In this document: in pieces, positions 8,631-24,747 of the stretch
How positions within the stretch are numbered: position 1 is the stretch's first letter
Layout: each line of letters begins with the position of its first letter
Source of the DNA: a bacterium
GTDB lineage: Bacteria; Margulisbacteria; Marinamargulisbacteria; GCA-2716485; GCA-002719695
Assembly: GCA_002719695.1 (NCBI GenBank)
Contig: PBEQ01000016.1
Location: 1-57,467 of the forward strand
DNA length: 57,467 bases
Direction of reading: 5' to 3'
Notes under the pieces: model-generated
Databases searched by the model: none
What the model was told of the DNA's origin: nothing
Seen by the model: only the letters and a program-made list of their open reading frames with translations
Translations under genes and position numbers: made by a program

Positions 8631-8827
8631 GATAGTTGCTAAAGGTATTTAGATAAGTAGCCTTGTAGGGATTAAGTTAAGGCATAATATGTGCTTCATA
8701 ATTTAACTATAACAAAGCTCAAAGAAGTTTGGTACTATATAATCAAAAAAAATGAAATATATTGTGTTAAAAAGACGATAACTGTAATAGTTAAGGGTAT
8801 CTTTAAGAATTATTAACATGGAGATAT

Positions 8828-11800: not shown

Positions 11801-11905
11801 CGTGCAGAATTTGCTGTAATTCTTGATAGACTCTTACTTTGGAAACAAAAAATGTTAGATGATAAAAATATTAATTTGAATTTTAGTGAACTAGTAGTTA
11901 ATTAA
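8828..11905 (+). CDS. Secreted giant coiled-coil protein with beta-rich middle region and C-terminal SLH-like repeats
   Basis: 1025 aa with a GGAG RBS and a signal peptide (LLFSMSLHA/SD). Residues ~130-530 are K/E/Q/L-rich and heptad-like. The middle is beta-strand-rich, with an FlgD-Ig-like segment (GDHSFTFDP...EGSYTLVCDV). Two SLH-like motifs sit at the C-terminus: AVTRLDFIEIVGRFLL and YLTRAEFAVILDRLLL. Confidence 0.75.
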   Translation: MRYFSLILTLLLFSMSLHASDIVVNIDPNPVQLESYFRISVVSEKPIKEAILLVGDDMFPLKKVSDQLFKIKLKAFNDLDSNNVFVNVVFTSSKVQMLPVQINVSQGNVYQPGINVSIDSDNFNSVSIDNTKLEIEYLEDKLDLLDQKNKRLNNEIANLNQRLKNQNQLDLTKKEIAQEQKKLDQLTDLLKQEMISKQNSIMELKKQMELFNLRQDEFNKREQELTSLSVNLSKQSEELLNKEQKIAQEKLLIQQKETAINQQRSLVKTSQLEVVKDRNMVDKMKNEIYVQKKELEKRNKQIRKKEKDLDTVIASIETNKSNLNSKEKQLKGLSIKINSERQNLMRVSEKLDVKKKQLDLEKNKFYQEKSEKEKNLKQAQKNVNEFEKKLLGTVSELSRLEKDYLDRSSQFLKEKERLDNDRLNYEKEKKAFDLEYSNLKLMESKIAVRVEILNNLGQHIDSQLSLLHKQISESEQTKKSYELDMSGKVGYLNNLTKLIEKRANKMEYRNKRLIVKNKQLSQRLASITAPDYRYSFSPYFGVRISDDSKSEYDEYGINFSAFLEKGYSVTLGVGTASYMKNSNSNHQNIVNESMGYISLAYLLNPKEQLGFYIRSLVSRPLKMAAAEINFGAGLDLKYHHNAKFSSFFGGYFLEAPYFSFGVEKYIIPTFKKSIAFDNQKNTPTVDEFEIENQATFDSNNDVFLSFNSIRPYFCFFPKSQRFDDVSSSWYEASVNRTSSLGLFDLKNSTVFNPKGYLTFKDISYSLVWARYIDQMVKPAPIKVEFSIVSDIQQSVFLSFYIFDKNGNKIKQLVDKKEFFIGDHSFTFDPQFSSLQEGSYTLVCDVFVNKISKAKSVGYNLESILITSYKEDFIINGGTSLTDFPEIKANFNAKETVPYIKQAIDYNWLSFDKNDIDLFSNQAVTRLDFIEIVGRFLLEEGAQNRNIEVDLTYYKDLSLIPKEKQKFLKEYVIELGYGGDQNQKLNPYQYLTRAEFAVILDRLLLWKQKMLDDKNINLNFSELVVN

Positions 11906-11984
11906 GATCTTTTAGATATGATACAATACTCTTAATTTACGTGTGATTTATGTTAAAATAAATTATTTTCTGGGAGAGAATTGT

Positions 11985-13346
11985 ATGACAGAAACATTGT
12001 TTAATAAAATTTTAATTGCTAATAGAGGCGAAATTGCGGTTCGAATCATTAGAGCTTGTAAGGAATTAGGTATTTCAACGGTTGCTATTTATTCAGAGGT
12101 TGATCAGAATTCGTTACATGTGAAACTTGCTGATGAAGCTATTTGTGTTGGACCTGCTACCCCGAGTAAAAGTTATTTAAATATTCCTTCTATAATTGCA
12201 GCATGTGAGGTAACTGGGGCAGAAGCTATTCATCCCGGGTATGGGTTTTTATCTGAAAATGCTGATTTTAGTGATGTTTGCGAAGCTAATAATATTGTTT
12301 TTATTGGCGCATCTGCTCGTTGTATTAATATGATGGGAAATAAGTCTGAAGCAAAAAAAACGATGAAGTCTTTAAGTGTTCCTATTGTCCCTGGTTCAGA
12401 GGGGGTTGTTTCGGATCTAGCTACTTTAAAAGAGATCGCAAAAGAAACGGGGTATCCTTTGCTTTTAAAAGCATCTGCTGGGGGTGGTGGCCGAGGTATG
12501 AGAATTGTTCATCAAGAATCGGAATTAGAAAGTGCTTATAATATGGCTCACAATGAAGCCATTTCTGCTTTTGGGAATGGCGATATTTATGTTGAAAAGT
12601 TTATTGAAAATCCTCGGCATATTGAGATACAGGTGTTATCTGATAAATCAGGGCACGCTATATATTTGGGTGAAAGAGAGTGCTCTATTCAACGTCGACA
12701 TCAAAAGTTAATTGAGGAAGCTCCATCTCCTATTATAACGGAAGAAATGAGAAAAAAAATGGGAGAGGCTGCTATTAAGGCCGCATCTGGTATTAACTAT
12801 GAAGGAGCTGGAACGGTTGAGTTTTTGGTTGATAACAAGTCTAATTTTTATTTTATGGAAATGAATACTAGAATTCAAGTTGAGCATCCTGTTACGGAAA
12901 TGATTACAGGAATTGATTTGGTAAAAGAACAGATTCGGATTGCTTATACTAAAAAACTAACGTTAACTCAGGATGATGTTAGTTTTAATGGGCATGCTAT
13001 GGAATTTAGAATTAATGCTGAGGATTATAAAAATAATTTTATGCCATCTCCAGGAACCGTAGATTTATTTTTACCTCCAGGAGGAAAAGGGGTTCGTACG
13101 GATAGTTTTATTTATCCAGGGTTTAAAATACCTACTAATTATGACTCTTTAATAGGTAAATTGATTGTTTGGGGAAAAGATAGATCGGAAACCATTCAGC
13201 GTGCTAATAGAGCATTAGAAGAATTTGTTATTGATGGGGTTATTACTGTAATACCGTTTCATCAAAAAGTATTAAAGCATGATGCGTTTATCAAAGGGGA
13301 GTTTGATACACATTTTGTTGATCAGTATATTGATGATTTAATCTAA
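11985..13346 (+). CDS. accC: Acetyl-CoA carboxylase biotin carboxylase subunit
   Basis: ORF opens at GTG 11943. A GGAGAG RBS plus ATG 11985 gives the canonical N-terminus MTETLFNKILIANRGEIAVR. ATP-grasp loop ASAGGGGRGMR; EMNTRIQVEHPVTE. Confidence 0.95.
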   Translation: MTETLFNKILIANRGEIAVRIIRACKELGISTVAIYSEVDQNSLHVKLADEAICVGPATPSKSYLNIPSIIAACEVTGAEAIHPGYGFLSENADFSDVCEANNIVFIGASARCINMMGNKSEAKKTMKSLSVPIVPGSEGVVSDLATLKEIAKETGYPLLLKASAGGGGRGMRIVHQESELESAYNMAHNEAISAFGNGDIYVEKFIENPRHIEIQVLSDKSGHAIYLGERECSIQRRHQKLIEEAPSPIITEEMRKKMGEAAIKAASGINYEGAGTVEFLVDNKSNFYFMEMNTRIQVEHPVTEMITGIDLVKEQIRIAYTKKLTLTQDDVSFNGHAMEFRINAEDYKNNFMPSPGTVDLFLPPGGKGVRTDSFIYPGFKIPTNYDSLIGKLIVWGKDRSETIQRANRALEEFVIDGVITVIPFHQKVLKHDAFIKGEFDTHFVDQYIDDLI

Positions 13347-13760
13347 ATGGGTACTAGGCATCTTGGTAGGAGGTTAGCAGTTCAAGCTTTATATCAGGCC
13401 TGTACTCGCAAAGATTTAAGTGTTGATGTATTAATAAGTTTTATTGATGCATCTGATAATGATTCACAAGCTAAATCATGGGGAAAAGATTTGGTTTTAG
13501 GAGCCTGGAAACAGCTTGCTAGTTCGGATTCTTTAATTGAAAAGTATTCTATTGGTTGGTCATTAGATAGGATTAATTTTATTGATTTAAGTATTTTAAG
13601 GTTAGCTTTTTATGAGTTGTCTGTAAGTGATTCTCCAGTCAACGTTATTTTAGATGAAGCTGTTGAATTAGCGAAGGAGTTTTCAACTGTAGAATCAGCA
13701 AAGTTTATTAATGGTATTTTGGGAAAATATGTAGCAGATCATGTTCACGGGAATCATTAA
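13347..13760 (+). CDS. nusB: Transcription antitermination factor NusB
   Basis: 137 aa, starting directly after the accC stop (TAAATG). NusB-like helical protein with C-terminal FINGILGK. Confidence 0.8.
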   Translation: MGTRHLGRRLAVQALYQACTRKDLSVDVLISFIDASDNDSQAKSWGKDLVLGAWKQLASSDSLIEKYSIGWSLDRINFIDLSILRLAFYELSVSDSPVNVILDEAVELAKEFSTVESAKFINGILGKYVADHVHGNH

Positions 13761-14358
13761 ATTAATTGGTAACATTAAATCTATAGCTACGCTCTCTGAT
13801 GGATTAGAGGTTGTGATATCCTGTAAAACAGATGATCTTGATATGAGCATTGGTGATAGTATTAGTGTTAATGGCGTTTGTTCTACGGTTGTTGCATTTA
13901 ATGATACTCAATTTACTGTCCATTATCTTCAGGAAACATTGCGAGTGACTACGTTTCATAAGATGGCTGTTGGTGATTATGTAAATTTAGAACCTAGTTT
14001 AACATTACAAACAAAATTAAGTGGTCATTATGTTTCAGGACATATTGATGCGGTAGGGTGTGTAATGATGCTTAAAAAAAATGATCCATGGGGTGTTTTA
14101 ACAATTAAATTTGATAATAAAATAGCTCCTTACTTTATATATAAAGGATCTATTGCAATTGATGGTATTAGCCTTACAATTGCTGAACTTACGGAAACAG
14201 AGTTAACGTGCCATATTATTCCTCATACATTTGAGCATACCATTTTGCAATATTATGATATTGGAAATAATGTTAATATAGAATGTGATATACTTGGTAA
14301 GTATATTTTAAAAGCTGTAAAGCATGGGGTTGTGGGAGCTAATAATGTCACACTTTAG
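13741..14358 (+). CDS. ribE: Riboflavin synthase (alpha chain)
   Basis: 205 aa. MFTGII N-terminus and two lumazine-binding repeats (GDSISVNGVCSTV, GSIAIDGISLTI). Overlaps nusB by 20 nt. Confidence 0.9.
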   Translation: MFTGIIKLIGNIKSIATLSDGLEVVISCKTDDLDMSIGDSISVNGVCSTVVAFNDTQFTVHYLQETLRVTTFHKMAVGDYVNLEPSLTLQTKLSGHYVSGHIDAVGCVMMLKKNDPWGVLTIKFDNKIAPYFIYKGSIAIDGISLTIAELTETELTCHIIPHTFEHTILQYYDIGNNVNIECDILGKYILKAVKHGVVGANNVTL

Positions 14359-15544
14359 TACGATTAAAAAAGCCATTCAAGATATTTCAAATGGAAAGAT
14401 GGTTATTGTTGTTGATGATGAAGATCGGGAAAATGAAGGTGATCTTATTATGGCTGCAGATTTCGCTACACCTGATGCAATTAATTTTATGATTAAACAA
14501 GCTCGCGGATTGGTTTGTGTTCCTGTTACCGATGATATTTTAGATCGTTTAGAAATAACGGAAATGGTTAAAGAGAATTCTGATCCTCATAAAACAGCAT
14601 TTACAGTTTCTTTTGATGCTCATTCAAAACATGGTATTTCGACGGGTATTTCTGCCTATGATAGGGCTAAAAGTGTTCGTATTCTTATTCACCCTAATTC
14701 AACAAAAGATGATATTATTTCGCCAGGTCATTTATTTCCGTTAAGAGCTAGAAGAATGGGTGTTTTAAAGCGAGCTGGGCATACAGAAGCTGCTGTTGAT
14801 CTTGCAAGGTTAGCTGGGTTACAACCGGCTGGTGTTATTTGTGAAATTATTAAGCAAGATGGTGATATGGCACGAATGCCAGATTTAGTTAAGTTTGCAA
14901 AGAAACATTCTTTATCGTTGATTACAATTAAGGATCTAATTCAATATAGAATTCAAAATGAATCATTTATTGAATTGGTTGAGACTATTTCATTGCCAAC
15001 AGATATAGCCAATTTTGATCTTCATTGTTATTTAGATAAATTAAATGATAAATATCATTATGCGTTAACTTATGGTAAATACAAAGTTAAACCCACATTA
15101 GTGCGTGTTCACTCAGAGTGTATTACAGGCGATGTATTTGGTTCTTTGCGTTGTGACTGTGCACCTCAATTACATACAGCAATGAAAATGGTTGCTGATA
15201 ATGGAAGTGGAATTGTTTTGTATATGAGTCAGGAGGGTAGGGGGATTGGAATAGCTAACAAATTAAAAGCCTATAAACTACAAGAAAATGGATTGGATAC
15301 TGTTGAGGCCAATGAGGAATTAGGTTTTTCAGATGATTTAAGAGACTATGGTGTGGGTGCTCAGATCTTGTTAGATCTTGGGGTAAAGGAAATGAATTTA
15401 ATTACTAATAATCCACGTAAAATAATTGGCTTAAAAGGATTTGGATTGTCTGTAAAAGAGAGAATTCCTATAAAAATAGAACCAGGAAAATTTAATCAAT
15501 CGTATTTAAAAACAAAACAAAAGAAAATGGGGCATATGTTATGA
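14345..15544 (+). CDS. ribBA: Bifunctional 3,4-dihydroxy-2-butanone-4-phosphate synthase / GTP cyclohydrolase II
   Basis: [11 protein letters not shown] (DHBP synthase) in the N-half; [17 protein letters not shown] (GCH II) in the C-half. ATG 14345 (MSHFST) is preferred over the ORF-track start 14324. Confidence 0.93.
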
Positions 15545-16026
15545 AACAAAATCATGTAAAAGGTTTAGAACAACAAGATACAATTAAAGGTGATTTAGAT
15601 GGGAAATCATTTTCAGTTTATATTGTTGTGGCTTCGTATAATGGAGATATTGCACAGGGACTATTAGATGGTGCCTTGAACGCATTAAATGAGTGTGGAA
15701 CGACATCTATTAAGATTATTGAAACTAATGGTGCTTTTGAACTTCCGTTGGTTGCAAAAAAATGTGCTCCATTATGTGATGCCGTCATTTGTTTAGGTGC
15801 CGTTATTAAAGGAGATACGGCTCATTTTGATCATGTTTCTAATGAATGTGCTCGAGGAATACAACAGGTTATGCTTGAAACAGGTAAGCCTGTAATATTT
15901 GGTGTTTTAACGACCTATACTGTTTTTCAGGCAAAAGAAAGATCATTACCAGATTCGTTTAATGAGGGGTATGATGCTGCAAATACTGCGATTAGTATGT
16001 GTTCATTAATGACTAAACTATCTTAG
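15541..16026 (+). CDS. ribH: 6,7-dimethyl-8-ribityllumazine synthase
   Basis: 161 aa. Motifs GAFELP and ICLGAVIKGDTAHFDHV. 4-nt overlap with ribBA. Confidence 0.9.
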   Translation: MKQNHVKGLEQQDTIKGDLDGKSFSVYIVVASYNGDIAQGLLDGALNALNECGTTSIKIIETNGAFELPLVAKKCAPLCDAVICLGAVIKGDTAHFDHVSNECARGIQQVMLETGKPVIFGVLTTYTVFQAKERSLPDSFNEGYDAANTAISMCSLMTKLS

Positions 16027-16027
16027 T

Positions 16028-16630
16028 TTAATAAGAACGGATTGTTCCTATACATTTTCCTAAGATTTTTAAATTGGAAGATTTATAAACAAAAATGGGT
16101 TTAAAGTTATTATTTTCAGCTTTTAACGTAATGTGATTTTTTTCTTTAATATATCGTTTTAATGTTGCTTCATTATCAATAAGAGCTGCTACAATATCTC
16201 CTGAGCGAATTGGTAAATCTTTCTCAATTATTGCAATATCTCCCTCTAGGATACCTGCATTAATCATACTATCTCCTTTAATAGTTAAGGCAAATTTGTT
16301 TTTTTTATGTTTTAACATAGTTAGAGATTCTACAGTTTTATCAAAATGTTCAATGGCTTCTGTTGGTGTTCCAGCATGGATATGACCTAAAATAGGTGTT
16401 GAAAATGGCTGTGCTAAGAGCGTTAATGCTCTTGCTTTAGAATGGCGTTTGATGTACTTTTTTCGTTCAAGAATTTCTAGATATGTTCTAACAGTACCAT
16501 CGGAATTAAACTTGAATTCTTTAGCGATTTCTTTATAAGATGGGTAATATTGTTTGTCTTGAAAAAAATCATAAATAAAGTTTAAGATTGCGGCTTGTTT
16601 TTTTGTGAGGGATTCTAAACTATTGCCCAT
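16028..16630 (-). CDS. lexA: LexA repressor (S24 self-cleaving transcriptional repressor)
   Basis: 200 aa. N-terminal winged HTH (LTKKQAAILNFI, YPSYKEIA), Ala-Gly site (HAGTP), catalytic Ser (GDSM) and Lys (ATLKR). The start overlaps the upstream gene by 11 nt. Confidence 0.9.
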   Translation of the reverse strand: MGNSLESLTKKQAAILNFIYDFFQDKQYYPSYKEIAKEFKFNSDGTVRTYLEILERKKYIKRHSKARALTLLAQPFSTPILGHIHAGTPTEAIEHFDKTVESLTMLKHKKNKFALTIKGDSMINAGILEGDIAIIEKDLPIRSGDIVAALIDNEATLKRYIKEKNHITLKAENNNFKPIFVYKSSNLKILGKCIGTIRSY

Positions 16631-17189
16631 GTTCTAGTCTTGTAATAATTTCTACAATGTTTAAATTAGTTTTATCAATAGGTGTAATTTTTGCACTTAT
16701 TGAGGTTTTAAAATTATGAATAATATTTAATAATCCAATTTCAGATTGTTCTTGATTGTACATTAAATTATTTTTCATGCGATTAATAATAAGTGACTCA
16801 ATATCTTTTGTTTGTAATTGGTTCAGGGTGTGTATTAGGTTGTTAGCCGTATCGTTTGTTGCAATATTTTCAGTGATAAAAATAATTTCCTTTTCGCAAT
16901 TTTTTAAAAATATATTAATTTCATTTTGATCTTGATAACTATGCTTCATTGCATTTTCTATTAATTCGTTAATTATAGTAGATAAAATAGATTTAATTTC
17001 TTTTTTCTTATAAAATGATGAGACGCAATAATCAGCAAAAAAATTGGATATTAAACTACATTTTTCCCAATCTTTAGAATGATCAATAGGCATTTTAAAA
17101 GACAAAGAAACTTTTTCTTTAAGTTTTTTAAGTTTAGATTCGTCTAAATTTCCTAAGAATGTTGTCACTGTGATTTTAGATAGATTCAA
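16620..17189 (-). CDS. GHKL-like (SpoIIAB/RsbW-type anti-sigma-factor-like) protein
   Basis: 189 aa. N-box INELIENAMKH and G2-like SEIGLLNII, but the G1 DxGxG position reads ENIATND. Overlaps the STAS gene by 14 nt and lexA by 11 nt. Confidence 0.55.
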   Translation of the reverse strand: MNLSKITVTTFLGNLDESKLKKLKEKVSLSFKMPIDHSKDWEKCSLISNFFADYCVSSFYKKKEIKSILSTIINELIENAMKHSYQDQNEINIFLKNCEKEIIFITENIATNDTANNLIHTLNQLQTKDIESLIINRMKNNLMYNQEQSEIGLLNIIHNFKTSISAKITPIDKTNLNIVEIITRLEHGQ

Positions 17190-17514
17190 TGTCTAATTTT
17201 TCCCAAAGTTGTTTTAATGATAATAAAGTTTTTTGTTGCCAAGGAATTGAATTATTAATAATTAATTTCATATCTTTATTATCTTTCCTTGCTTGAATGA
17301 TAATTCTTGCTAATGATGTTATTCCAGAACTATTTAAGTATTCTAATGAAGTTAAGTTTACAGTAAGCGTATCCGTACAATTTTCGAGACTTTTTTTTAT
17401 GAGTGAAAATGGTTGATCGTAAGATAATGGCGATGGTAACCTCATAGATCCAGATATAGAGACTTCATTTAAAATGCTTGAGTCAATAATATAATCATCT
17501 GTTTTAATAATCAT
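17176..17514 (-). CDS. STAS-domain protein (anti-sigma-factor-antagonist-like), copy 2
   Basis: 112 aa. STAS core LEYLNSSGITSLARIII with the conserved Ser. Roughly two thirds identical by eye to the 18131-18469 product. Confidence 0.7.
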   Translation of the reverse strand: MIIKTDDYIIDSSILNEVSISGSMRLPSPLSYDQPFSLIKKSLENCTDTLTVNLTSLEYLNSSGITSLARIIIQARKDNKDMKLIINNSIPWQQKTLLSLKQLWEKLDIESI

Positions 17515-18025
17515 TTTTTAAATCCTTACTGTTTAAATTTAATGTTATTTGTGTTTTTAAAATTGTGGTTACATTCCTTGGTTTTTTTTCATAATCTATT
17601 TTTATAGATCCATTGTAGTCCTCAATAAAACTATAGATGGCATATCCTAGTTCTGCAAAAGTTTTTGTAAATATAATAGATTCAAAATTGTTATTTTTTT
17701 TGATTAAATAAATTTTTTTTAAATAGCTTTTTAATAGAGATATTTGCTGAAATTGAAGAAAAAAGGATAGGGTTATTGTTGTAATATTATTGGTTTTATT
17801 ACAAGTTAATGTATAATTTTCAGTTTTTTTTGCTCCATATTTAACAACTAGCTCTAAACATTCATTGATTACCGTGGCGATAACATTACTCAGAAATACT
17901 TCTTTCTGTTGATTGTTACTAAATAAACTTGAACAAAATATCGACGACAAACTGGCTCGTTTCCATGTTGAAATTATATCAGTAGGCAAGAATTTCATTT
18001 GAAAATTTAAACTATTATTTTTCAT
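17504..18025 (-). CDS. Degenerate GHKL-like paralog of the 16620-17189 product
   Basis: 173 aa. Shares the W-x-x-x-SL-S-x-F and INE motifs with the 189-aa protein, but the N-box is degenerate (INECLELVVKY; Asn and His lost). G2-like AELGYAIYSFI. Confidence 0.45.
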   Translation of the reverse strand: MKNNSLNFQMKFLPTDIISTWKRASLSSIFCSSLFSNNQQKEVFLSNVIATVINECLELVVKYGAKKTENYTLTCNKTNNITTITLSFFLQFQQISLLKSYLKKIYLIKKNNNFESIIFTKTFAELGYAIYSFIEDYNGSIKIDYEKKPRNVTTILKTQITLNLNSKDLKNDY

Positions 18026-18130
18026 TTTATTTTTTTGATATTTAAGAAGATAACTTAATAGTAACGCAAATTTGGTTTGTTTAGTAGGTTATTTATTGTT
18101 AAATAAGAGTGAGTTTATTGATTTTTTTTG

Positions 18131-18469
18131 TTAATCTAATTCAAATGATAATTGATCCCATAATTTATTTAATGACAGTAGTGTTTTGGCTTGCCATGGA
18201 ATTGATTTGTTAATTATAATTTTTAGTGGTTTGTTGTTAGCTCTTGCTTCAATAATAATTCGTGCAAATGATGTTAAGCCAGAGCTATTAAGATATTCTA
18301 AATCTTTTAAATCAATTGTTAGTATATCGCTTGCTTCTTCTAGGCTATTTTTAATTATAGAGAATGGTTTTTCATAAGATAGTGGGGATGGTAATCTCAT
18401 TTTTCCTGAAATTAGAACATGGTTTAATTGCTGAGCGTTGATAGTGTAGTCTTCTGTTTTTACAATCAT
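18131..18469 (-). CDS. STAS-domain protein (anti-sigma-factor-antagonist-like), copy 1
   Basis: ORF extends to 18508. ATG 18469 gives MIVKTEDY, colinear with the paralog MIIKTDDY and the same 112-aa length. Core motif LEYLNSSGLTSFARIII. Confidence 0.7.
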   Translation of the reverse strand: MIVKTEDYTINAQQLNHVLISGKMRLPSPLSYEKPFSIIKNSLEEASDILTIDLKDLEYLNSSGLTSFARIIIEARANNKPLKIIINKSIPWQAKTLLSLNKLWDQLSFELD

Positions 18470-18601
18470 GATTTTTATTACCTTTATATATATTTTTTTA
18501 TTTATCATACACTTTTTTATTAAAAAATTTTATATCTTTTTTTAAAATATGTTTTTTAGAAGCTTATGTATCTTATTTTTAATTATTGATAGTAAACTAT
18601 G

Positions 18602-20740
18602 TTATTTATTTATAGAAGACGGGTTTGTTGTTACTATGTTATGTTTGATAATAATAAATGTTAAATCATCTAGATATATTTTATTTGTAAAGTCGTTTAA
18701 GGTGTTAATAAACGATTTTTTAATTAGTTCTGGAGATTCATGTGCAAATTTTTCTAAGAGTTTTGTTATTCTTGAATCATTAAATTGTTCTTTTTTGGGA
18801 TTTCCATCTTGATGTGCTTCTGTAAGACCATCTGTTGCTAAAAAGAGAATATCTCCTTCTGATAAAGTGAACGATGCAGATGCAAAGCAGTTACTTGGAA
18901 TTGAATCGGTTAAGCCAATCCCGAAAGGAAGGTGACTAATTGTATGATGAACCACTTTTTTTTCTTTATATTTGTAAATAAATAAGTTTTCATGATTTCC
19001 ATGGAATTTATATGTTTTTCCATCTTGAGTATTTAATGTTACTAAGGATATAGGCCTTAGTTCTGTTAATCGTTCAAAATTTTGACAGAGTATTTTATTT
19101 GCTTTTTTGTTAATTGAAGCGGGATCAGTAAGCTTGCTGGAATGAATTAAGCTAGAGAAAATACTCTGAATCATTAACATGACCATTCCAGATCCAATGC
19201 CATGACCAGCTACATCTCCTAATATAATCCAGTTATGATCATTTTTGCTATGAATATCAAAAAAATCTCCACCTACTTCATCAGACGATCTTAAAAAGGT
19301 TGACGTTGTGCAATTTGGGATTGAGTGATTTTGAGGAATGATTTCAGATTGAATTTTTTGAGCCATGTCCATTTCAGTTTGGACTCGTAATTGTTTTATT
19401 TTTGTTAAGGTAACTTTTATTTGATTACCTAATGTTCTATATAGTTGATAATCTTCTTGTGTATATTTACTTTCATTCATTTTCTTTCCTAATAGAATCA
19501 GACAAATTAGTTGATTCTTATCATCAAAGCAGGATAGTAATAATTTTTCGTAATCAAGATTTAATTTGTCTTGAGCGGGTTTTGATAATTCACTACTTAA
19601 AACAATGTGTTTTTTTTTATTTTCAATTTCTGAAACTAATAATGGGTTTAAAGGTTTCTTTTTTACATTATTCTCTTTGTTACTAGAAAAATAGCAAATA
19701 CGTTTACTTGTTTGTTTAAATTTATCATAATGCTCAGGAATATATATTTGCACATTGCTAATTTCTAACGTATCAGTAAGTAATTTATATAAATGACGAA
19801 TTAAGTTTGTTAAATTAGTACAATTACTTGAATAATCTGAAAAATTAAGCATTACTTTTCTGTAATTGTACTCTCCTCGAAGAAATAATTTCTCTGCAGT
19901 TGATTGTAACTTGGTTCTAACAGTTTGAAAGGTTAATGAGCAAAAAATTAGGTACGTTCCAATCAAAATTGTATAAACTCCTGAAATTGTATGTGCAACA
20001 TATAATTTGTATACCCACGATAGACTCATGTAACCAAAAATATAAATAAAAATACATATACCAGATGCAACTATTTTATTTATAAGAAGGTTAATGTTAA
20101 AAAAATTGTATTTTAACATTAAGTAAGCAACAGAAAAATTGAAAACACTAGCGACTAGGGGGCCTATTTTATAAAAATGTGTTTCATTAAATAATGACGG
20201 TAAAAGTAAGTTGCATAACGTTGCTAATGAAAGTGACAATATTAAGGCTAATAAATAAAAATTAATTTGTTTGCTTTTGTCAGGATACTTTCTTTTGTTT
20301 TGTTGGCATATTTTTACAATTGAAATTGTAAAGATAATTAAGTATGCAGTCCAAATATTATGTAAAGGACCAAATGTAATATCACGTGGGTTGTTCATAT
20401 ATTGTATGTGGTAAGGTGAAAAAGATGATGAAATTGCTAGTAATGTTGGTACTATGATTCGTATGTGTGTGGAGATAGATATTTTTTTTGAAGCTATAGG
20501 TAAATAAATAGAAAAGTATATTTGGGAGCTAATAAATAGTGATGCGCAAAAATAGGCTACTTGATTCCAAAATAAAAAGCTTTCGGAACTAAAAATAAGA
20601 AAATTGCTAAGGGACCAGCCTGTAAGAAAAAATACAGATATAGAAAAGCTAATGGACTTTTTATTAATGTGAGTTAATGTTAAAGGAATTAAGCCAATGA
20701 TAATATTGAGTATAAATAAGAAAGAATAGATTGCTAACAT
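18602..20740 (-). CDS. Polytopic membrane PP2C/SpoIIE-family protein phosphatase (RsbU-like sensor phosphatase)
   Basis: 712 aa. About nine hydrophobic helices in the first ~290 aa, a linker region, then PP2C motifs DEVGGDFFDI, GDVAGHGIGSGMVM, LATDGLTEA, DDLTFIIIK. Confidence 0.85.
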   Translation of the reverse strand: MLAIYSFLFILNIIIGLIPLTLTHINKKSISFSISVFFLTGWSLSNFLIFSSESFLFWNQVAYFCASLFISSQIYFSIYLPIASKKISISTHIRIIVPTLLAISSSFSPYHIQYMNNPRDITFGPLHNIWTAYLIIFTISIVKICQQNKRKYPDKSKQINFYLLALILSLSLATLCNLLLPSLFNETHFYKIGPLVASVFNFSVAYLMLKYNFFNINLLINKIVASGICIFIYIFGYMSLSWVYKLYVAHTISGVYTILIGTYLIFCSLTFQTVRTKLQSTAEKLFLRGEYNYRKVMLNFSDYSSNCTNLTNLIRHLYKLLTDTLEISNVQIYIPEHYDKFKQTSKRICYFSSNKENNVKKKPLNPLLVSEIENKKKHIVLSSELSKPAQDKLNLDYEKLLLSCFDDKNQLICLILLGKKMNESKYTQEDYQLYRTLGNQIKVTLTKIKQLRVQTEMDMAQKIQSEIIPQNHSIPNCTTSTFLRSSDEVGGDFFDIHSKNDHNWIILGDVAGHGIGSGMVMLMIQSIFSSLIHSSKLTDPASINKKANKILCQNFERLTELRPISLVTLNTQDGKTYKFHGNHENLFIYKYKEKKVVHHTISHLPFGIGLTDSIPSNCFASASFTLSEGDILFLATDGLTEAHQDGNPKKEQFNDSRITKLLEKFAHESPELIKKSFINTLNDFTNKIYLDDLTFIIIKHNIVTTNPSSINK

Positions 20741-20782
20741 TTTAGCGATACTATAATAAATAATGATGATGTGATCAAGTGA

Positions 20783-22027
20783 TTATAGCTTTATATCAGA
20801 TGGGATATTTTGTCCATTAATTCTTAATTTTGGAGCATGGAAGTTCATATTTATTAAGGTATTGTAATGTGTTTTTGCAATTTCATGTTTTGGAATGCCA
20901 GTTGATGCTTTGATGTTTGTATGGGTTGATGTTAATAATCCTGCAAGTACGCAGCTTGTCATTTCACAGTCTAATCTATTTAAAATAATTTTTGGTAAAT
21001 AAGATAGAAAAGGCTTTATTTCATTAGGTAGGTATCGATTTTCTTTTATTGGTTCTGGGGAATTTATCATTCCTGCTTCTATACAAATTATATCTTTTTG
21101 TGATTCCATTCTTTTATAGGCTTTGTTAGCATCAAAACAATGTGGTATTGAATCATCAATTAGGATTGTTCCAGGTTTAAGTTGGTTGATGTCCAGAATG
21201 TTGGCTTGATTTGTAGCTCCAATTATAATGCTTGCTTGATAAAACTCTTTAGGGGCTTGGTTTGATGATTCAATAAATTTTATTTTATTTTTAAACCCTA
21301 ACTGTCGAATTTCTGTTTTTAAGGTATCAAATAATACTTTTACAGCTGGTATATCACATAAAATCAATTCTTTTGGATGCGGGAGTGTTTTTAACATCAA
21401 TTTTAGTGAGGATTGACCAATTGAACCTATTCCTACAAATCCAATTACTTCATTTTGGATAGTTTTGTTTTGATTTTTTAATAATTCTTTTAGAGTAATG
21501 ATTACCGTTGCTGTTGTTGTTGCATGTCCTGTTGTGATTTCCATTGTTGATTTTTTTGGTATTAAAGAGATGATGTCAGAGCCGTATTGAGTGACAGATG
21601 GAATTAATCCAGCTAGAGATATTGATTTTGCTCCGATAAAATTAGCTAAATGAAGCCCTTTTTCTAATTGAGCTTTTAATAGCGATTTGTGATTAAATAA
21701 ATCATTTTCATCAATGGGTAATACAATGATTGCTGTAGATCCAAATGAAAATTCAAAAATATTGAATAAAATTGGTAATTGCTTAAAAATTGCTTTTATT
21801 TTTTCTGATATAGATTCATTTTGTAATGGTAAATATGCTAAAGTTGCTGCATTTACTTTTTGTAATTGTCCTGTAGCTATAAGATTAAGTAACGATCGGT
21901 GTTCATATTGGATTGTTTGTTTATTTAAGGATGTTATTTCAGATTTTTTTTTTTCTTGTTTCAGTTTTTGTATTAAAGCAAGTTTTTCTTGAGGTGTTAA
22001 AGATGTAATGTTGGTAGTATATGTCAT
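20783..22027 (-). CDS. NAD(P)-binding acyl-ACP-reductase-like protein (COG5322-type, tentative)
   Basis: 414 aa. Rossmann motif GFVGIGSIGQS preceded by ITTGHATTTA. Colinear by eye with my recollection of cyanobacterial acyl-ACP reductase (TTGN..TA, GATGDIGS, LID..YP, Cys region here CEMTSCVLAGLL). No search was run. Confidence 0.5.
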   Translation of the reverse strand: MTYTTNITSLTPQEKLALIQKLKQEKKKSEITSLNKQTIQYEHRSLLNLIATGQLQKVNAATLAYLPLQNESISEKIKAIFKQLPILFNIFEFSFGSTAIIVLPIDENDLFNHKSLLKAQLEKGLHLANFIGAKSISLAGLIPSVTQYGSDIISLIPKKSTMEITTGHATTTATVIITLKELLKNQNKTIQNEVIGFVGIGSIGQSSLKLMLKTLPHPKELILCDIPAVKVLFDTLKTEIRQLGFKNKIKFIESSNQAPKEFYQASIIIGATNQANILDINQLKPGTILIDDSIPHCFDANKAYKRMESQKDIICIEAGMINSPEPIKENRYLPNEIKPFLSYLPKIILNRLDCEMTSCVLAGLLTSTHTNIKASTGIPKHEIAKTHYNTLINMNFHAPKLRINGQNIPSDIKL

Positions 22028-22034
22028 ATCTAGA

Positions 22035-24227
22035 TTAGTATGTTAGTTCTAAAGATGATGTTTGCGTGTTCAGTAAGGTTAATTGTTTGATAAGTTCATC
22101 TTGTTTTTGGTCAATTCGTTGACATAGTCCTTTCATAGTTACGTTTTCTGAAAATAGCTCACTTGGGTTTAATTCAATTCCAAATTGATCTTGTATTTCA
22201 GCAATTATTTGCATCATGATTAAGGAGTTCCCTCCTAAATATTCTAATTTAGATGACAAAGATACAGCTGGTATATTTAGTAAATTTTTTAATATATTAC
22301 TGATAATTTCTTCTGTTGCAGTTAGAGGGATATGGTTGTTTTTTTTAGGAATTTTTTTTGTGATTTTGCTTGTTACAACGTTTAAGCTATTGTTTATAAA
22401 ATGCTGTTTGCATAACTGACGCTGTTTTTTACTACTAGATGTTTTTGGCAAGCTCATGGGTTTGATATAAATAATATCATTAATCGAAAATCCATATTCA
22501 TGAAAAATAGCTTGTATTATTTTTTGACTTAATTTTTCTTGATTAAAGGACTTAACATGAACCCTTTCTATTTCAATTGCAGTGGCTAATTTTTGTGTAC
22601 CATTGGATTGATATTCAAAAATAATACAACCCCCTAATTTTATTTCTTTTGCTATGCTTTCTATTTGATTTTCTATGTCATGAGGATAGATGTTTTTACC
22701 ATGAATTATTATCATATCTTTAATTCGGCCTGTTACAAATAAATCATTGTTGTCATTAAAAAATCCTAAATCTCCTGTTCTTAGAAAGTGACCATCTTCG
22801 TTCTTCAAGGTTGCTTTAAATGTGAGATCAGTTAAGGCAGGTTTGTTCCAATATCCTTTACAGACATTTGGACCTTGTACCCAAATTTCGCCAACTATAT
22901 TTTTTGGATTTTCAGTTAATGAATCAGGATTAACAATTTTTATTTTTTGTTGATTCCATGATTTTCCACATCCAACAAGAATGAGTTCATCTTTACTGTT
23001 TTTTGGAGGTTTAATGGTGTTAGTTGCTAACTCATGTTTATCAACAGGTAATAATACGGGTGATTGATCGCAAGGTGCGCTTGTAGCAAAACATGTTGTT
23101 TCCGCTAATCCAAATAAAGGACAAAATGCATCAAATGAAAAGTTGCACTCTTTAAATTTTTTTGAAAAGTTAGTTAGGGTTTCAGCTTTTATAGGTTCGG
23201 CGCCATTAAATGCTATTTTCCATGATGATAAATTTAATGTTTCAAGCTTTTCTTTTGCTATTTTGTTGGTACAAAGTTCATATGAAAAATTAGGGCCACC
23301 GCTGTAGTCAATTTGGTAATCACTAATTGTTTTTAGCCAAATAAAAGGATTTCGAATAAAGGCTGTTGGACTCATTAAAATAGAGAAGCCTCCTATGTAA
23401 ATAGGGTGTAAGATGTTTGCGATAATACCCATGTCATGATAGTGAGGTGCCCATCCGCAAATACGTGTTTTTCCGGATGTCTGACCAGCACACTTAATCA
23501 TATGTTGATTCGTTATGATATTATGATGACTATTAATAACACCTTTTGGATCTGATGTTGATCCAGATGTAAATTGTATAAATGCAGTATCACCTGCTGT
23601 TACATTAGGTTTTTTCCATTTTTTTTCAAGTTTAGGATCTAAATTTTGGACGGATAAAAGTTTGATTTCTTCTAATTCTGAATATAAACTACTATCTTTA
23701 TAGTGTTGGTTTTTTATTGACTCTGTTGTAAAGCCAATAATTGCATTTGTATCTTTAATAATTGTTTTGATTCGATTTTGTTTTGCGTTTTGTTTTGGAG
23801 GAAATAAAGGAACCGCAATAGCACCTCCATATATACAACCAAAAAAATCAATAATAAATTCAATGCCAGGTGGATGTAAGAGCAAAATAGGGACGTGATG
23901 GAAGTTGTTTTCTTGAATGTATGTACCTATTATTTTGGCTTTAGTATGAAGTTCTTTGTAAGTAAGTTTGCTCTGTTCTTCACCTTTTTCATTAAGAAAA
24001 ATAAATGCAGTTTTATTTGGTTTTGTTTTTGCATGAAAACTTAAAATATCAATTAAGGTTTTCTTTTCTTCAAGTTTATTAAAATTAAATGATTTAGGAA
24101 ATAATGGATATTTAAATAATGGCGGGCGTTTAGGAAAGATCGTTTGATTATCAAGTGATGAGACAACGAAGTTGTATTCATTTGATACCAGCATGGAATT
24201 TGATTTAACTTTTTTTGGTAAAACCAT
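22035..24227 (-). CDS. Fatty acyl-AMP ligase fused to an acyl carrier domain (FAAL-ACP)
   Basis: 730 aa. Adenylation motifs FTSGSTSDPKGV, GDLGF and TGRIKDMIIIHGKNIYPHDIE. The C-terminal ~80 aa form a carrier domain with phosphopantetheine Ser motif LGGNSL. Confidence 0.85.
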   Translation of the reverse strand: MVLPKKVKSNSMLVSNEYNFVVSSLDNQTIFPKRPPLFKYPLFPKSFNFNKLEEKKTLIDILSFHAKTKPNKTAFIFLNEKGEEQSKLTYKELHTKAKIIGTYIQENNFHHVPILLLHPPGIEFIIDFFGCIYGGAIAVPLFPPKQNAKQNRIKTIIKDTNAIIGFTTESIKNQHYKDSSLYSELEEIKLLSVQNLDPKLEKKWKKPNVTAGDTAFIQFTSGSTSDPKGVINSHHNIITNQHMIKCAGQTSGKTRICGWAPHYHDMGIIANILHPIYIGGFSILMSPTAFIRNPFIWLKTISDYQIDYSGGPNFSYELCTNKIAKEKLETLNLSSWKIAFNGAEPIKAETLTNFSKKFKECNFSFDAFCPLFGLAETTCFATSAPCDQSPVLLPVDKHELATNTIKPPKNSKDELILVGCGKSWNQQKIKIVNPDSLTENPKNIVGEIWVQGPNVCKGYWNKPALTDLTFKATLKNEDGHFLRTGDLGFFNDNNDLFVTGRIKDMIIIHGKNIYPHDIENQIESIAKEIKLGGCIIFEYQSNGTQKLATAIEIERVHVKSFNQEKLSQKIIQAIFHEYGFSINDIIYIKPMSLPKTSSSKKQRQLCKQHFINNSLNVVTSKITKKIPKKNNHIPLTATEEIISNILKNLLNIPAVSLSSKLEYLGGNSLIMMQIIAEIQDQFGIELNPSELFSENVTMKGLCQRIDQKQDELIKQLTLLNTQTSSLELTY

Positions 24228-24337
24228 GTTAAATTCCTATTTTTTTGACATTAAAGATAGTTATTAATGTGATACTATATATTGCATCATATTGTCAATG
24301 CTTTTGTTTTCAAAATTGTACTTATTTAGTGCTTTTT

Positions 24338-24492: not shown

Positions 24493-24747
24493 ATGTCAAA
24501 ACGTATAAAAACAAGATCATCAAATCAAAAATCAAAATCAGGTTCAAAATCAGGTTATGGTAGCCCTAATGTTAATAAACGTACGATTACAAAAAAAGAT
24601 CTTAAATCTATTTTAAAGAAACCTTGGTCTAAAATAACTAGTATGGATCTTTATAAACTGTATCAATTTGGACATCAGTCTGAAGAGCTAGCTGCTAATT
24701 TTAAAACAACAACTATTCAGATTTTGAATCGTTTACGCTATCAATGA
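24493..24747 (+). CDS. Small basic protein, unknown function
   Basis: 84 aa. Lys/Ser-rich N-half containing a 12-nt tandem repeat (SKSGSKSG), and a helical C-half. ATGA overlap with the MFS gene. Confidence 0.5.
   Translation: MSKRIKTRSSNQKSKSGSKSGYGSPNVNKRTITKKDLKSILKKPWSKITSMDLYKLYQFGHQSEELAANFKTTTIQILNRLRYQ

What the first reader, a model, noticed from the sequence alone, without database searches (positions are those of the whole stretch)
16028..18508. lexA sits in the sigma-factor slot of a duplicated STAS / anti-sigma-like module
Canonical partner-switching operons run STAS antagonist, then GHKL anti-sigma kinase, then sigma factor (spoIIAA-AB-AC, rsbV-rsbW-sigB). Here the order is STAS-1, GHKL-like, STAS-2, GHKL-like, lexA. 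The last three junctions overlap (11, 14, 11 nt), which implies translational coupling. LexA itself looks functional, with the HTH, Ala-Gly site, Ser in GDSM and Lys in ATLKR all present. The two 112-aa STAS proteins are about two thirds identical and both keep the phosphorylatable Ser (LNSSG). This raises the hypothesis that the 189-aa GHKL-like protein binds LexA, or another non-sigma target, under STAS control.
Basis: partly seen in the sequence, partly recalled or inferred. Interest (0 to 1): 0.7.

Follow-up and report, generated by a model that had tools for sequence, protein, structure and literature searches.

The report
lexA fused to a phospho-switch operon
In an uncultured marine bacterium related to Marinamargulisbacteria, the SOS repressor gene lexA is the last, overlapping gene of an operon encoding a membrane phosphatase, two kinase-like proteins and two small phosphoproteins, which hints, without proving it, that a membrane signal could act on LexA.

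Summary
On the minus strand, 18508 to 16028, lie STAS-1, a 173-aa GHKL-like protein, STAS-2, a 189-aa GHKL-like protein and lexA, with 11/14/11-nt overlaps. LexA is canonical.

It also missed the family: this is a slr1658/slr1659-superfamily cassette, closest in fold and gene order to Pseudomonas SiaA-SiaB-SiaC.

It is not a duplicated two-gene module. The two GHKL paralogues are ancient, and the 173-aa one has lost its ATP-binding residues. Only STAS-1 is an addition found solely in this species.

Elsewhere the family's cassette is phosphatase, GHKL, STAS, often followed by a cyclase, GGDEF or kinase output with a conserved N-terminal helix motif. It never carries a sigma factor.

lexA follows the second GHKL gene only in one marine lineage (Marinamargulisbacteria and relatives, 4 of 80 genome loci). 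There the junction stays overlapped or abutting in all but one lineage. One syntenic relative lacks lexA, and unrelated neighbouring genes overlap too.

Verdict: a new operon variant of a known kind of switch. Co-expression is well supported. LexA as the direct target is unproven (about 0.3).

The parts
18602..20740 (-). Sensor phosphatase (712 aa). The N-terminal part is a multi-pass membrane domain and the C-terminal part is a SpoIIE/PP2C domain (residues about 500-700, with a GGDFFD motif).
   Evidence: Pfam SpoIIE E=2.5e-29. Orthologues carry a weak HisKA_7TM hit. A hydrophobicity scan finds several membrane segments. It is conserved upstream of the module in all close relatives.
20750..20778 (-). 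Promoter-like element TTGATC-N17-TATAGT, about 10 nt upstream of the phosphatase ATG.
   Evidence: Found by the consensus scan. Its TTG and TATAGT parts are conserved in L091, L097 and L099, although the flanking sequence diverges. Function is not shown.
18131..18469 (-). STAS-1, an extra slr1659-like phosphoprotein (112 aa) found only in this species. The ORF extends to 18508, but the likely start is Met14.
   Evidence: NCBIfam slr1659_superfam E=6.8e-24, 84 bits (cut-off 100), with the alignment starting at residue 14. It is 65% identical to STAS-2 and 63-64% identical to every orthologue of STAS-2 in the closest relatives. It is absent from L001, L005, L011, L012, L017 and L094, and present in L091.
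18026..18130 (-). Intergenic spacer before G1. It carries a sequence (AATAAAnnCTACTAAACAA, then TTnnGTTA) that is conserved in the phosphatase-G1 spacers of relatives.
   Evidence: Spacers compared. Its role (internal promoter, operator or RNA element) is unknown.
17504..18025 (-). G1, a degenerate GHKL-like paralogue (173 aa) and probable pseudokinase or binding protein.
   Evidence: NCBIfam slr1658_superfam E=2.3e-7. A family HMM built without G1 gives E=1.5e-15. The N-box Asn is replaced by Leu, the conserved Asn108 equivalent is lost and the lid region is deleted, as in all G1 orthologues of the clade. The AF2 model has pLDDT 64, and Foldseek's top hits are SpoIIAB, UsfX and SiaB.
17176..17514 (-). 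STAS-2, a slr1659-like phosphoprotein (112 aa). It is the orthologue of the single STAS protein of relatives. The candidate phosphosite is Ser62 in LNSSG.
   Evidence: NCBIfam slr1659_superfam E=9.2e-25, 87 bits. There are weak hits to anti-sigma antagonist TIGR00377, Pfam STAS and SiaC. It is 76-80% identical to the orthologues in L011, L001 and L005. Asn61 and Gly64 are invariant and Ser62 is present in 83 of 84 family members.
16620..17189 (-). G2, a slr1658-superfamily GHKL-like protein (189 aa) and candidate Ser kinase of the STAS proteins.
   Evidence: NCBIfam slr1658_superfam 109 bits (cut-off 100), E=1.7e-31. The N-box NELIENAMK and Asn108 are kept; it has SEIG where the family has SGLG. 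The AF2 model has pLDDT 82, and the Foldseek top hit is SiaB (6KKO_A), followed by SpoIIAB, UsfX and RsbW.
16028..16630 (-). lexA (200 aa), the last cistron. Its start overlaps the G2 stop by 11 nt, and it is convergent with ribH.
   Evidence: TIGR00498 170.7 bits. Pfam LexA_DNA_bind and Peptidase_S24 both match. The cleavage site and the catalytic Ser and Lys are conserved. lexA is linked to G2 in L001-L006, L011-L013, L017, L091 and L094-L099.
20783..24227 (-). Upstream co-directional genes, possibly in the same transcript. They are a fatty acyl-AMP ligase fused to a carrier-protein domain (22035-24227, 730 aa) and a 414-aa protein (20783-22027).
   Evidence: Pfam AMP-binding and PP-binding. 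NCBIfam fatty acyl-AMP ligase models. The 414-aa protein matches PDB 9E4S/9E4X at E=1.6e-78. Both are conserved upstream in L001, L017 and L094 to L099, but replaced by other genes in L005, L011 and L012.
24269..24298 (-). Promoter-like element TTGACA-N17/18-TATCA(C/A) upstream of the ligase gene.
   Evidence: Conserved in the window, L097 and L099. Function is not shown.

Best explanation
The region is the 3' part of a conserved operon of an uncultured, low-GC marine bacterium related to Candidatus Marinamargulisbacteria. It encodes a serine phospho-switch of the slr1658/slr1659 superfamily, built like Pseudomonas SiaA-SiaB-SiaC.

Proposed working:
1. The 189-aa GHKL protein (G2) phosphorylates Ser62 of the STAS-like proteins.
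2. The multi-pass membrane PP2C phosphatase removes the phosphate when it senses a membrane or envelope cue.
3. The unphosphorylated STAS protein then changes binding partners. The 173-aa paralogue (G1) has lost its ATP-binding residues and can only act as a non-catalytic partner.

lexA was recruited in this lineage as the terminal cistron, with its start overlapping the G2 stop. The safest reading is coupling at the level of expression: LexA is made together with the switch, and if LexA represses the operon promoter the switch belongs to the LexA regulon. LexA keeps its full self-cleavage machinery, so RecA-type control is presumably intact. The direct protein target of the switch is not fixed by the family and is not shown here. 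LexA is the leading single candidate (about 0.3); otherwise the target is encoded elsewhere.

Shown: gene content, families, motifs, folds, and conservation of the linkage.
Inferred: kinase activity, partner switching, the signal, co-transcription and any effect on LexA.
For: - Family assignment and PP2C.
- Folds: G2 matches SiaB first, then SpoIIAB, UsfX and RsbW. G1 matches the same set.
- Motifs: the N-box and other family residues are invariant in G2 and lost in G1. Ser62 is present in 83 of 84 STAS-like relatives.
- Cassette architecture: in 80 genome loci the module is G-S or P-G-S in most. P-G-S-G occurs in Margulisbacteria-like MAGs without lexA (L021, L023, L036). lexA is adjacent in only 4 of the 80, all from one marine lineage.
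- Family outputs elsewhere are GGDEF, cyclase or kinase proteins. Natural fusions are PP2C-G, GGDEF-G and G-STAS, never LexA or a helix-turn-helix domain.
- L016 keeps the module and the rib/nusB/accC synteny but lacks lexA.
- Twenty kilobases of synteny are conserved in close relatives, so background synteny is high.
- The unrelated genes accC, nusB, ribE, ribBA and ribH in this window also abut or overlap.
- LexA is canonical.
- A conserved promoter-like element lies just upstream of the phosphatase, and there is no room for one between G2 and lexA.
Against: - The G2-lexA junction stays overlapped or abutting (11, 8 and 1 nt) across lineages with only 39-71% G2 identity. lexA also follows a different-looking G2 in L013 and lies 1.9 kb from a third module type in L014. 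That is more persistent than simple passenger status predicts.
- The upstream genes vary among relatives, while P-G1-S-G2-lexA is constant in the lexA-linked lineages.
- The usual motif-bearing output gene is absent from the whole window and from the clade's loci, so the switch has no other visible output.
- No LexA operator could be found at either promoter-like element, so autoregulation of the operon is unsupported.
Confidence: 0.5

Rival explanations
1. Anti-LexA partner switch. LexA is the direct output. One of the GHKL-like proteins holds LexA, or protects it from cleavage. The degenerate G1 is the most plausible binder; the first reader proposed G2. Dephosphorylated STAS competes for that protein, so a membrane signal sensed by the PP2C changes LexA activity independently of DNA damage.
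For: - The order STAS-2, G2, lexA mirrors spoIIAA-spoIIAB-sigF, and the G2-lexA junction overlaps.
- The linkage is conserved down to 32-39% G2 identity and 46-53% LexA identity in Marinamargulisbacteria single-cell genomes (L013, L017), and in several metagenomic lineages.
- lexA lies near a further module type in L014.
- A pseudokinase paralogue whose only possible role is binding accompanies the module in this clade.
- No sigma factor and no motif-bearing family output is encoded in the window.
- For the family founder Slr1658, the transcription factor downstream is explicitly unknown (PMC6525291).
Against: - The evidence is context only.
- L016 has the same module, the same degenerate G1 and the same synteny without lexA.
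- There is no LexA or helix-turn-helix fusion or adjacency in the other roughly 75 genome loci or among the 150 best family representatives.
- Overlaps between unrelated genes are common in this genome.
- LexA shows no unusual feature and keeps its RecA-type cleavage residues.
- There is no precedent in the searched literature.
Confidence: 0.3
2. Classical or SiaD-like output encoded elsewhere. The switch controls an alternative sigma factor, a cyclase, or another enzyme located outside this window. lexA sits next to it only because of genome compaction next to the rib operon.
For: - The module is self-contained in most of the family, and P-G-S-G cassettes end without any output gene in L021, L023, L036 and the P0035 contig.
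- L016 lacks lexA.
- The lexA-ribH convergent adjacency is itself conserved, and module-rib proximity extends to L015 and L049 without lexA.
- A second, stand-alone PP2C in the window (27945-28925) shows that more such signalling parts exist in this genome.
Against: - No candidate target is visible in 57 kb.
- The persistence of the G2-lexA junction across deep divergence is not explained.
Confidence: 0.15
3. The switch regulates the upstream lipid-type pathway. That pathway consists of the fatty acyl-AMP ligase with its carrier domain and the 414-aa enzyme, plus a phosphopantetheinyl transferase in L017. Control would be post-translational, much as SiaC activates SiaD.
For: These genes are co-directional and tightly packed with the phosphatase in the window, L001, L017 and L094 to L099.
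Against: - They are replaced by unrelated genes in L005, L011 and L012, while the module and lexA remain.
- A conserved promoter-like element separates them from the phosphatase.
- None of them carries the family output motif.
Confidence: 0.05

Closest known systems
SiaA-SiaB-SiaC-SiaD of Pseudomonas aeruginosa (threonine phospho-switch controlling a diguanylate cyclase)
   Same: - It has a membrane PP2C phosphatase, a small GHKL-type kinase and a STAS-like phosphoprotein, in the same phosphatase-kinase-phosphoprotein gene order as the family's cassette.
- SiaB (6KKO_A) is the best structural match of G2.
- Relatives of this family are often followed by or fused to GGDEF cyclases.
- The mechanism was taken from PMC7278518.
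   Different: - It is a different sequence family. SiaB_fam_kinase scores 17 bits against a cut-off of 85, Pfam SiaC gives E=0.05, and SiaA scores 42 bits against 700.
- The phosphosite motif is NSSG (Ser), not Thr68 of SiaC.
- This locus has a second, degenerate GHKL paralogue and a second STAS protein.
- It has no cyclase; lexA follows instead.
slr1658/slr1659 superfamily regulators (NCBIfam NF047703/NF047705; Pfam DUF6272), founder Slr1658 of Synechocystis sp. PCC 6803
   Same: G2 passes the NF047703 cut-off. The STAS proteins match NF047705 best. The invariant family residues are kept. A PP2C lies upstream, as in Nostoc, Agrobacterium and others.
   Different: - The usual cassette has one GHKL and one STAS protein, often followed by an output protein with the DLEILLETTTEH helix motif. 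This locus has two of each, no such output, and lexA.
- Only genetics is known for Slr1658: an iron-starvation recovery phenotype and about 1000-fold pgr5 de-repression, with the signalling chain unknown (PMC7555055, PMC6525291).
SpoIIAA-SpoIIAB-sigma F and RsbV-RsbW-sigma B partner switches with SpoIIE/RsbU PP2C phosphatases
   Same: - It has a STAS protein with a phosphorylatable Ser in a (D/N)SSG motif, a GHKL anti-sigma-type fold and a PP2C of the SpoIIE family.
- The order is STAS, GHKL, transcription regulator, with overlapping genes.
   Different: - There is no sigma factor in the operon or the window.
- The regulator is a repressor with its own proteolytic switch.
- The GHKL proteins lack the DxGxG box; a conserved Asn sits there instead.
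- Sequence similarity to anti-sigma F or RsbW models is negligible (TIGR01925 E=0.068).
Partner-switch systems with extra antagonists or kinase-like paralogues (Mycobacterium smegmatis RsbW1 with RsfA, RsfB and RsbW3)
   Same: They have more than one STAS protein and a GHKL paralogue that acts by binding rather than catalysis (abstract of PMC10950880).
   Different: Those systems converge on sigma F. They are unrelated in sequence and are not linked to lexA.
Canonical LexA/RecA SOS circuit
   Same: This LexA is an equivalog-level match with the cleavage site and catalytic dyad intact. uvrB is present in the window.
   Different: - lexA is the last gene of a signalling operon rather than a self-standing or leading autoregulated gene.
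- No known SOS-box consensus is present in the window.

Membership tests
slr1658 superfamily regulator (NF047703 / DUF6272) | Score above the curated cut-off of the family model | tested here: met
   G2 scores 109 bits against a cut-off of 100, E=1.7e-31. Pfam DUF6272 is below its cut-off (22.4 against 26.6). G1 scores only 30 bits, so it is a divergent relative rather than a member by cut-off, but a family HMM gives E=1.5e-15.
slr1658 superfamily regulator (NF047703 / DUF6272) | Conserved N-box NELxENAxK, a conserved Asn after strand 2, and an SGxGL lid motif | tested here: inconclusive
   G2 keeps the N-box and Asn108 but has SEIGL. G1 has lost the N-box Asn, Asn108 and the lid.
slr1659 superfamily regulator (NF047705) | Score above the curated cut-off | tested here: not met
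   STAS-2 scores 87 bits and STAS-1 scores 84 bits against a cut-off of 100. This is still by far the best family (E about 1e-24), and the checked conserved family residues are present in both, including Gly22, Leu26, Asn61, Ser62, Gly64, Trp92 and Gln93.
Partner-switching system (RsbV/RsbW/RsbU, SpoIIAA/AB/E type) | STAS-fold antagonist with a phosphorylatable Ser/Thr | tested here: met
   There are weak but consistent STAS and anti-sigma-antagonist hits. Ser62 in LNSSG is conserved in 83 of 84 relatives. The STAS fold itself was not modelled.
Partner-switching system (RsbV/RsbW/RsbU, SpoIIAA/AB/E type) | GHKL-fold protein that is both a Ser kinase and an anti-factor | tested here: inconclusive
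   The fold is matched for G2 (pLDDT 82) and G1 (pLDDT 64). ATP binding and kinase activity are not testable here. The DxGxG box is absent.
Partner-switching system (RsbV/RsbW/RsbU, SpoIIAA/AB/E type) | PP2C phosphatase input | tested here: met
   A SpoIIE domain (E=2.5e-29) is in the gene directly upstream.
Partner-switching system (RsbV/RsbW/RsbU, SpoIIAA/AB/E type) | Cognate sigma factor as the sequestered target | tested here: not met
   No sigma factor is present in the operon or anywhere in the 57-kb window. The rest of the genome is not available.
SiaABCD system | Membership of the SiaA, SiaB and SiaC protein families | tested here: not met
   SiaB_fam_kinase scores 17 bits (cut-off 85), SiaA scores 42 bits (cut-off 700), and Pfam SiaC gives E=0.05. 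The resemblance is in fold and architecture only.
SiaABCD system | Diguanylate cyclase output activated by the unphosphorylated phosphoprotein | tested here: not met
   There is no GGDEF gene in the operon or window. GGDEF outputs do occur in other members of the slr1658/1659 family.
LexA (TIGR00498) | Winged-helix DNA-binding domain plus S24 peptidase domain, with an Ala-Gly site and a Ser/Lys dyad | tested here: met
   It scores 170.7 bits against a cut-off of 110.95. Pfam LexA_DNA_bind and Peptidase_S24 both match. Ala86-Gly87, Ser121 and Lys158 align to E. coli LexA.
LexA (TIGR00498) | Autoregulation through an SOS box at its own promoter | tested here: inconclusive
   No E. coli-type, Gram-positive-type or cyanobacterial-type box was found, and no shared palindrome occurs in the candidate promoters. 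The operator of this lineage is unknown.

The most novel reading that the evidence does not exclude
A RecA-independent input into the SOS/LexA regulon. A partner-switching module acts as an anti-LexA system. It consists of a membrane PP2C, a GHKL kinase, a GHKL pseudokinase and STAS phosphoprotein(s). A GHKL-like protein or the unphosphorylated STAS protein binds LexA and changes its DNA binding or self-cleavage in response to a membrane or envelope cue. By extension, LexA could be the missing transcription factor downstream of Slr1658/Slr1659 in cyanobacteria, where LexA is a non-SOS global regulator.
Probability: 0.3. Interest if true: 0.85.

Novelty: new variant of a known kind. Interest (0 to 1): 0.55.

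Why it matters
Partner-switching modules are known to control sigma factors, diguanylate cyclases and secretion. None is known to control LexA, whose activity is classically set by RecA-stimulated self-cleavage.

A conserved operon that couples lexA to such a module gives a concrete, cheaply testable hypothesis for a DNA-damage-independent input to LexA.

It also touches two open questions in the sister phylum Cyanobacteria. One is what transmits the Slr1658 signal to transcription; PMC6525291 states that no details of the signalling chain or response regulator are known. The other is how the non-SOS LexA of Synechocystis is regulated.

Independently of LexA, the survey clarifies a barely described superfamily. 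It behaves as a SiaABC-like cassette with modular outputs that share an N-terminal helix motif.

If LexA is only a passenger, the finding reduces to an operon rearrangement in a streamlined marine lineage.

Tried and rejected
1. SOS-box searches. The Gram-positive (GAACN4GTTC), E. coli (CTGTN8ACAG) and cyanobacterial (RGTACNNNDGTWCB) consensus patterns give zero exact matches. With one mismatch, the cyanobacterial pattern gives 11 matches against 8.2 expected, one of them upstream of uvrB, which is not significant.

2. Palindrome and shared-motif searches. I searched the intergenic spacers, the two promoter-like regions and the uvrB upstream region of the window, L097 and L099. No recurrent inverted repeat was found.

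3. Nucleotide alignment of the 3' end of G2 across five lineages, looking for an embedded operator or promoter for lexA. Conservation is explained by the amino-acid sequence.

4. A metagenome scan with LexA, to view the association from the LexA side. It gave only three loci: one from the same species, and two distant LexA-like genes without the module.

5. A search for natural domain fusions of the slr1658 domain with LexA, helix-turn-helix or S24 domains. Only PP2C, GGDEF and STAS fusions were found.

6. Defence-system libraries. There were no meaningful PADLOC hits.

7. Sequence search of G2 against PDB. It found only N-box similarity to histidine kinases. The fold search was needed.

8. 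Multimer modelling was not attempted.

9. The idea that the locus is a tandem duplication of a STAS-GHKL pair was rejected. G1 and G2 are old paralogues present in all relatives, and only STAS-1 is extra.

10. The G1 model is of modest confidence (pLDDT 64), so its fold match is supportive only.

Full report
**What is in the sequence**

The minus strand between 20740 and 16028 carries six tightly packed genes:

| Gene | Coordinates | Size |
|---|---|---|
| Membrane phosphatase | 18602-20740 | 712 aa |
| STAS-1 | 18131-18469 (ORF to 18508) | 112 aa |
| GHKL-like protein G1 | 17504-18025 | 173 aa |
| STAS-2 | 17176-17514 | 112 aa |
| GHKL-like protein G2 | 16620-17189 | 189 aa |
| lexA | 16028-16630 | 200 aa |

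- The family models align to STAS-1 from Met14, which sets the start at 18469.
- The 14-nt overlap relies on a TTG start for G2. Orthologues have ATG at the aligned position with the same 14-nt overlap.
- STAS-1 and G1 are separated by 105 nt.
- lexA ends one base from the stop of the convergent ribH gene.
- The two STAS proteins are 65% identical.
- G1 and G2 are barely alike: 32% over 56 residues, E=5e-5.

**What the proteins are**

*LexA* is a textbook LexA.
- It scores 170.7 bits on TIGR00498 (cut-off 111) and matches both Pfam domains.
- Ala86-Gly87, Ser121 and Lys158 align with E. coli and Thermotoga LexA.
- These residues are invariant in nine orthologues of the clade.

*The upstream 712-aa protein* has a SpoIIE/PP2C domain (E=2.5e-29) behind a multi-pass membrane domain.

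*G2* belongs to the slr1658 superfamily.
- It passes the NCBIfam cut-off (109 bits against 100). Pfam DUF6272 is weak.
- The two STAS proteins match the partner model, slr1659 superfamily, at 84-87 bits. That is below the cut-off of 100 but gives E about 1e-24.
- The STAS proteins also give weak hits to anti-sigma antagonist, STAS and SiaC models.
- An AlphaFold model of G2 (pLDDT 82) matches SiaB of the Pseudomonas SiaB-SiaC complex best. SpoIIAB, UsfX and RsbW follow.

*G1* is a degenerate paralogue of G2.
- A family HMM built without it finds it at E=1.5e-15.
- Its lower-confidence model (pLDDT 64) hits the same structures as G2.
- In the family alignment the N-box NELxENAxK, an Asn after the second strand and an SGxGL motif are conserved.
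- G2 keeps the first two and has SEIGL in place of the third.
- G1 has Leu in place of the N-box Asn, has lost the second Asn and lacks the lid segment. So does every G1 orthologue in the clade.
- G1 is therefore best read as a pseudokinase.

*The STAS-like family*: Asn61 and Gly64 are invariant and Ser62 is present in 83 of 84 sequences. Both window copies keep them.

**How wide the family is and what its cassette looks like**

- An exhaustive profile search finds 1216 representatives at 50% clustering.
- They occur in cyanobacteria, Leptospira, rhizobia, Myxococcota, Chloroflexota and Margulisbacteria-like MAGs.
- In Nostoc, Agrobacterium and an unnamed MAG the cassette is sensor PP2C, slr1658-like, slr1659-like. 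The operon then ends or an output gene follows.
- Across 80 genome loci, most have the architecture G-S or P-G-S.
- That is the gene order of siaA-siaB-siaC, not of spoIIAA-spoIIAB-sigF.
- In 34 loci a neighbouring gene encodes a protein whose N-terminus has one or two copies of a helical motif, (E/Q)KxDLEILLETTTEHxDxxExxL.
- This motif is followed by GGDEF, class III cyclase, histidine kinase or PAS-GAF-ATPase domains.
- Natural fusions of the slr1658 domain are with PP2C, GGDEF or STAS.
- The family therefore behaves as a SiaABCD-like switch with modular enzyme outputs.
- No sigma factor or DNA-binding protein turned up as a partner outside the lineage discussed next.

**The lexA linkage**

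- Close relatives from marine metagenomes carry phosphatase, G1, one STAS, G2 and lexA. G2 identity to the window is 52-71% for L001, L005, L011 and L012; L094's G1 (P0041) is 54% identical to the window's G1.
- The neighbours are identical as well: ribH, ribBA, ribE, nusB and accC.
- The same arrangement occurs in Candidatus Marinamargulisbacteria AG-343-D04 (L017). There G2 is 39% and LexA 53% identical, with a TAATG junction.
- It also occurs in AAA071-K20 (L013). There G2 is 32% identical, and lexA follows after a short gap.
- In L014, lexA lies 1.9 kb from a third module type.
- The window's organism is thus a relative of Marinamargulisbacteria. This is an inference from these matches, the SLH-domain protein and about 30% GC.
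- From the module's side, lexA is adjacent in only 4 of 80 genome loci.
- P-G-S-G cassettes also exist without lexA (L021, L023, L036 and the P0035 contig).
- L016 keeps the phosphatase, the degenerate G1, STAS, G2 and the rib synteny, yet has no lexA.

STAS-1 is found only in this species. It is absent from all those relatives but present in an independent assembly of a 97%-identical strain (L091). STAS-2 is the orthologue of the single STAS of L011, L001 and L005 (76-80% identical). STAS-1 is equidistant from them at 63-64%.

In favour:
- The local order STAS, GHKL, regulator.
- A junction that stays overlapped or abutting over deep divergence.
- Upstream genes that vary, while P-G1-S-G2-lexA stays constant in the lexA-linked lineages.
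- A pseudokinase that can only bind something.
- No sigma factor and no motif-bearing family output anywhere in the 57-kb window.
- The transcription factor downstream of the founder protein Slr1658 is unknown. Its mutant de-represses pgr5 about 1000-fold (PMC7555055, PMC6525291).

Against:
- The evidence is context only.
- Background synteny is very high. Twenty kilobases are collinear among the window, L097 and L099.
- In this same window the unrelated genes accC, nusB, ribE, ribBA and ribH abut or overlap by 0, 20, 35 and 4 nt. Overlap is therefore a property of this compact genome, not a mark of interaction.
- L016 shows the module can persist without lexA at this position.
- No fusion or adjacency to LexA exists elsewhere in the family.
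- LexA looks entirely ordinary.

I could not find a LexA operator. Autoregulation of the operon is therefore also unproven.

Two promoter-like elements are conserved. One lies about 10 nt upstream of the phosphatase start (20750-20778). The other lies upstream of the fatty acyl-AMP ligase gene (24269-24298). There is no space for a promoter between G2 and lexA, although one inside G2 cannot be excluded.

**Conclusion**

The unit is a membrane PP2C, a GHKL kinase, a GHKL pseudokinase and STAS phosphoprotein(s). It belongs to the slr1658/slr1659 superfamily and is closest in logic to SiaABC. lexA has been recruited to it as the terminal cistron in one marine lineage.

| Reading | Probability |
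|---|---|
| Linkage is operonic; the switch's direct target is not defined by the locus | about 0.5 |
| LexA is the direct target of a partner switch | about 0.3 |
| Target encoded elsewhere | about 0.15 |
| Switch regulates the upstream lipid-type enzymes | about 0.05 |

The LexA-target reading would be new and important. It is directly testable with four small proteins.

Noticed in passing
L009 6106-8556; L048 7010-8386; L056 4121-4981; L084 2264-3370; L027 6554-7690 (34 loci in all): Genes next to slr1658/slr1659 pairs in cyanobacteria, Myxococcota and others encode proteins with one or two N-terminal copies of a roughly 25-residue helix motif, (E/Q)KxDLEILLETTTEHxDxxExxL. GGDEF, class III cyclase, HisKA-HATPase or PAS-GAF-AAA domains follow. 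No Pfam or NCBIfam model covers the motif. It looks like a shared docking site for the STAS-like protein, by analogy with SiaC binding SiaD. It is absent from the window and from the lexA-linked loci.
   Followed up: partly
window 27945-28925 (+): A second, stand-alone SpoIIE/PP2C phosphatase (326 aa, Pfam E=2.5e-44). It has no adjacent STAS or GHKL gene and is followed by an FdhD-like gene.
   Followed up: no
window 20783-24227 (-); L017 4396-5088: Upstream of the phosphatase lie a fatty acyl-AMP ligase fused to a carrier-protein domain and a 414-aa protein. The 414-aa protein is strongly similar (E=1.6e-78) to PDB chains 9E4S/9E4X, deposited as 'amino acid adenylation domain protein'. In L017 a phosphopantetheinyl transferase sits between the phosphatase and G1. 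This suggests a small lipid or secondary-metabolite pathway in the same operon in some lineages but not others.
   Followed up: partly
window 11943-16026 (+): accC, nusB, ribE, ribBA and ribH form an unbroken chain with 0, 20, 35 and 4-nt junction overlaps, although accC and nusB are unrelated to riboflavin synthesis. Gene overlap is a general feature of this compact genome.
   Followed up: yes
window 6627-8630 (-) and 8631-8827: uvrB is present. Its upstream region carries a one-mismatch match to the cyanobacterial LexA box (AGTACCAAACTTCT, 8723-8736). Such matches are not enriched in the window (11 observed, 8.2 expected), and the site is not conserved in L097 or L099.
   Followed up: yes
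window 24493-24747 (+): A small, basic, Ser/Lys-rich ORF (84 aa) lies divergent from the ligase gene and overlaps the start of the MFS transporter gene by 4 nt. It is conserved in size and position (77-80 aa) in L097 to L099. A strongly conserved sequence (TAGTTTAATGAAAAGATCnnACAATTGCAAAA on the operon strand) lies just upstream of its start.
   Followed up: no
L012 (NZWE01000013.1) and L016 (JAYOLY010000034.1): These MAG records are labelled Actinomycetota and Rickettsiales, yet they share gene content and synteny with Marinamargulisbacteria-type loci. The labels look like binning or classification errors.
   Followed up: no
P0215, P0221, P0228, P0233; P0217, P0244; P0080: Natural fusion proteins of the slr1658 domain exist: PP2C-slr1658, GGDEF-slr1658 and slr1658-STAS. 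They independently tie the three cassette parts and c-di-GMP outputs together.
   Followed up: partly
window 8828-11905 (+): A 1025-aa protein with an S-layer-homology domain is conserved next to accC in all relatives. It is consistent with a diderm envelope of the cyanobacteria/Margulisbacteria type.
   Followed up: no
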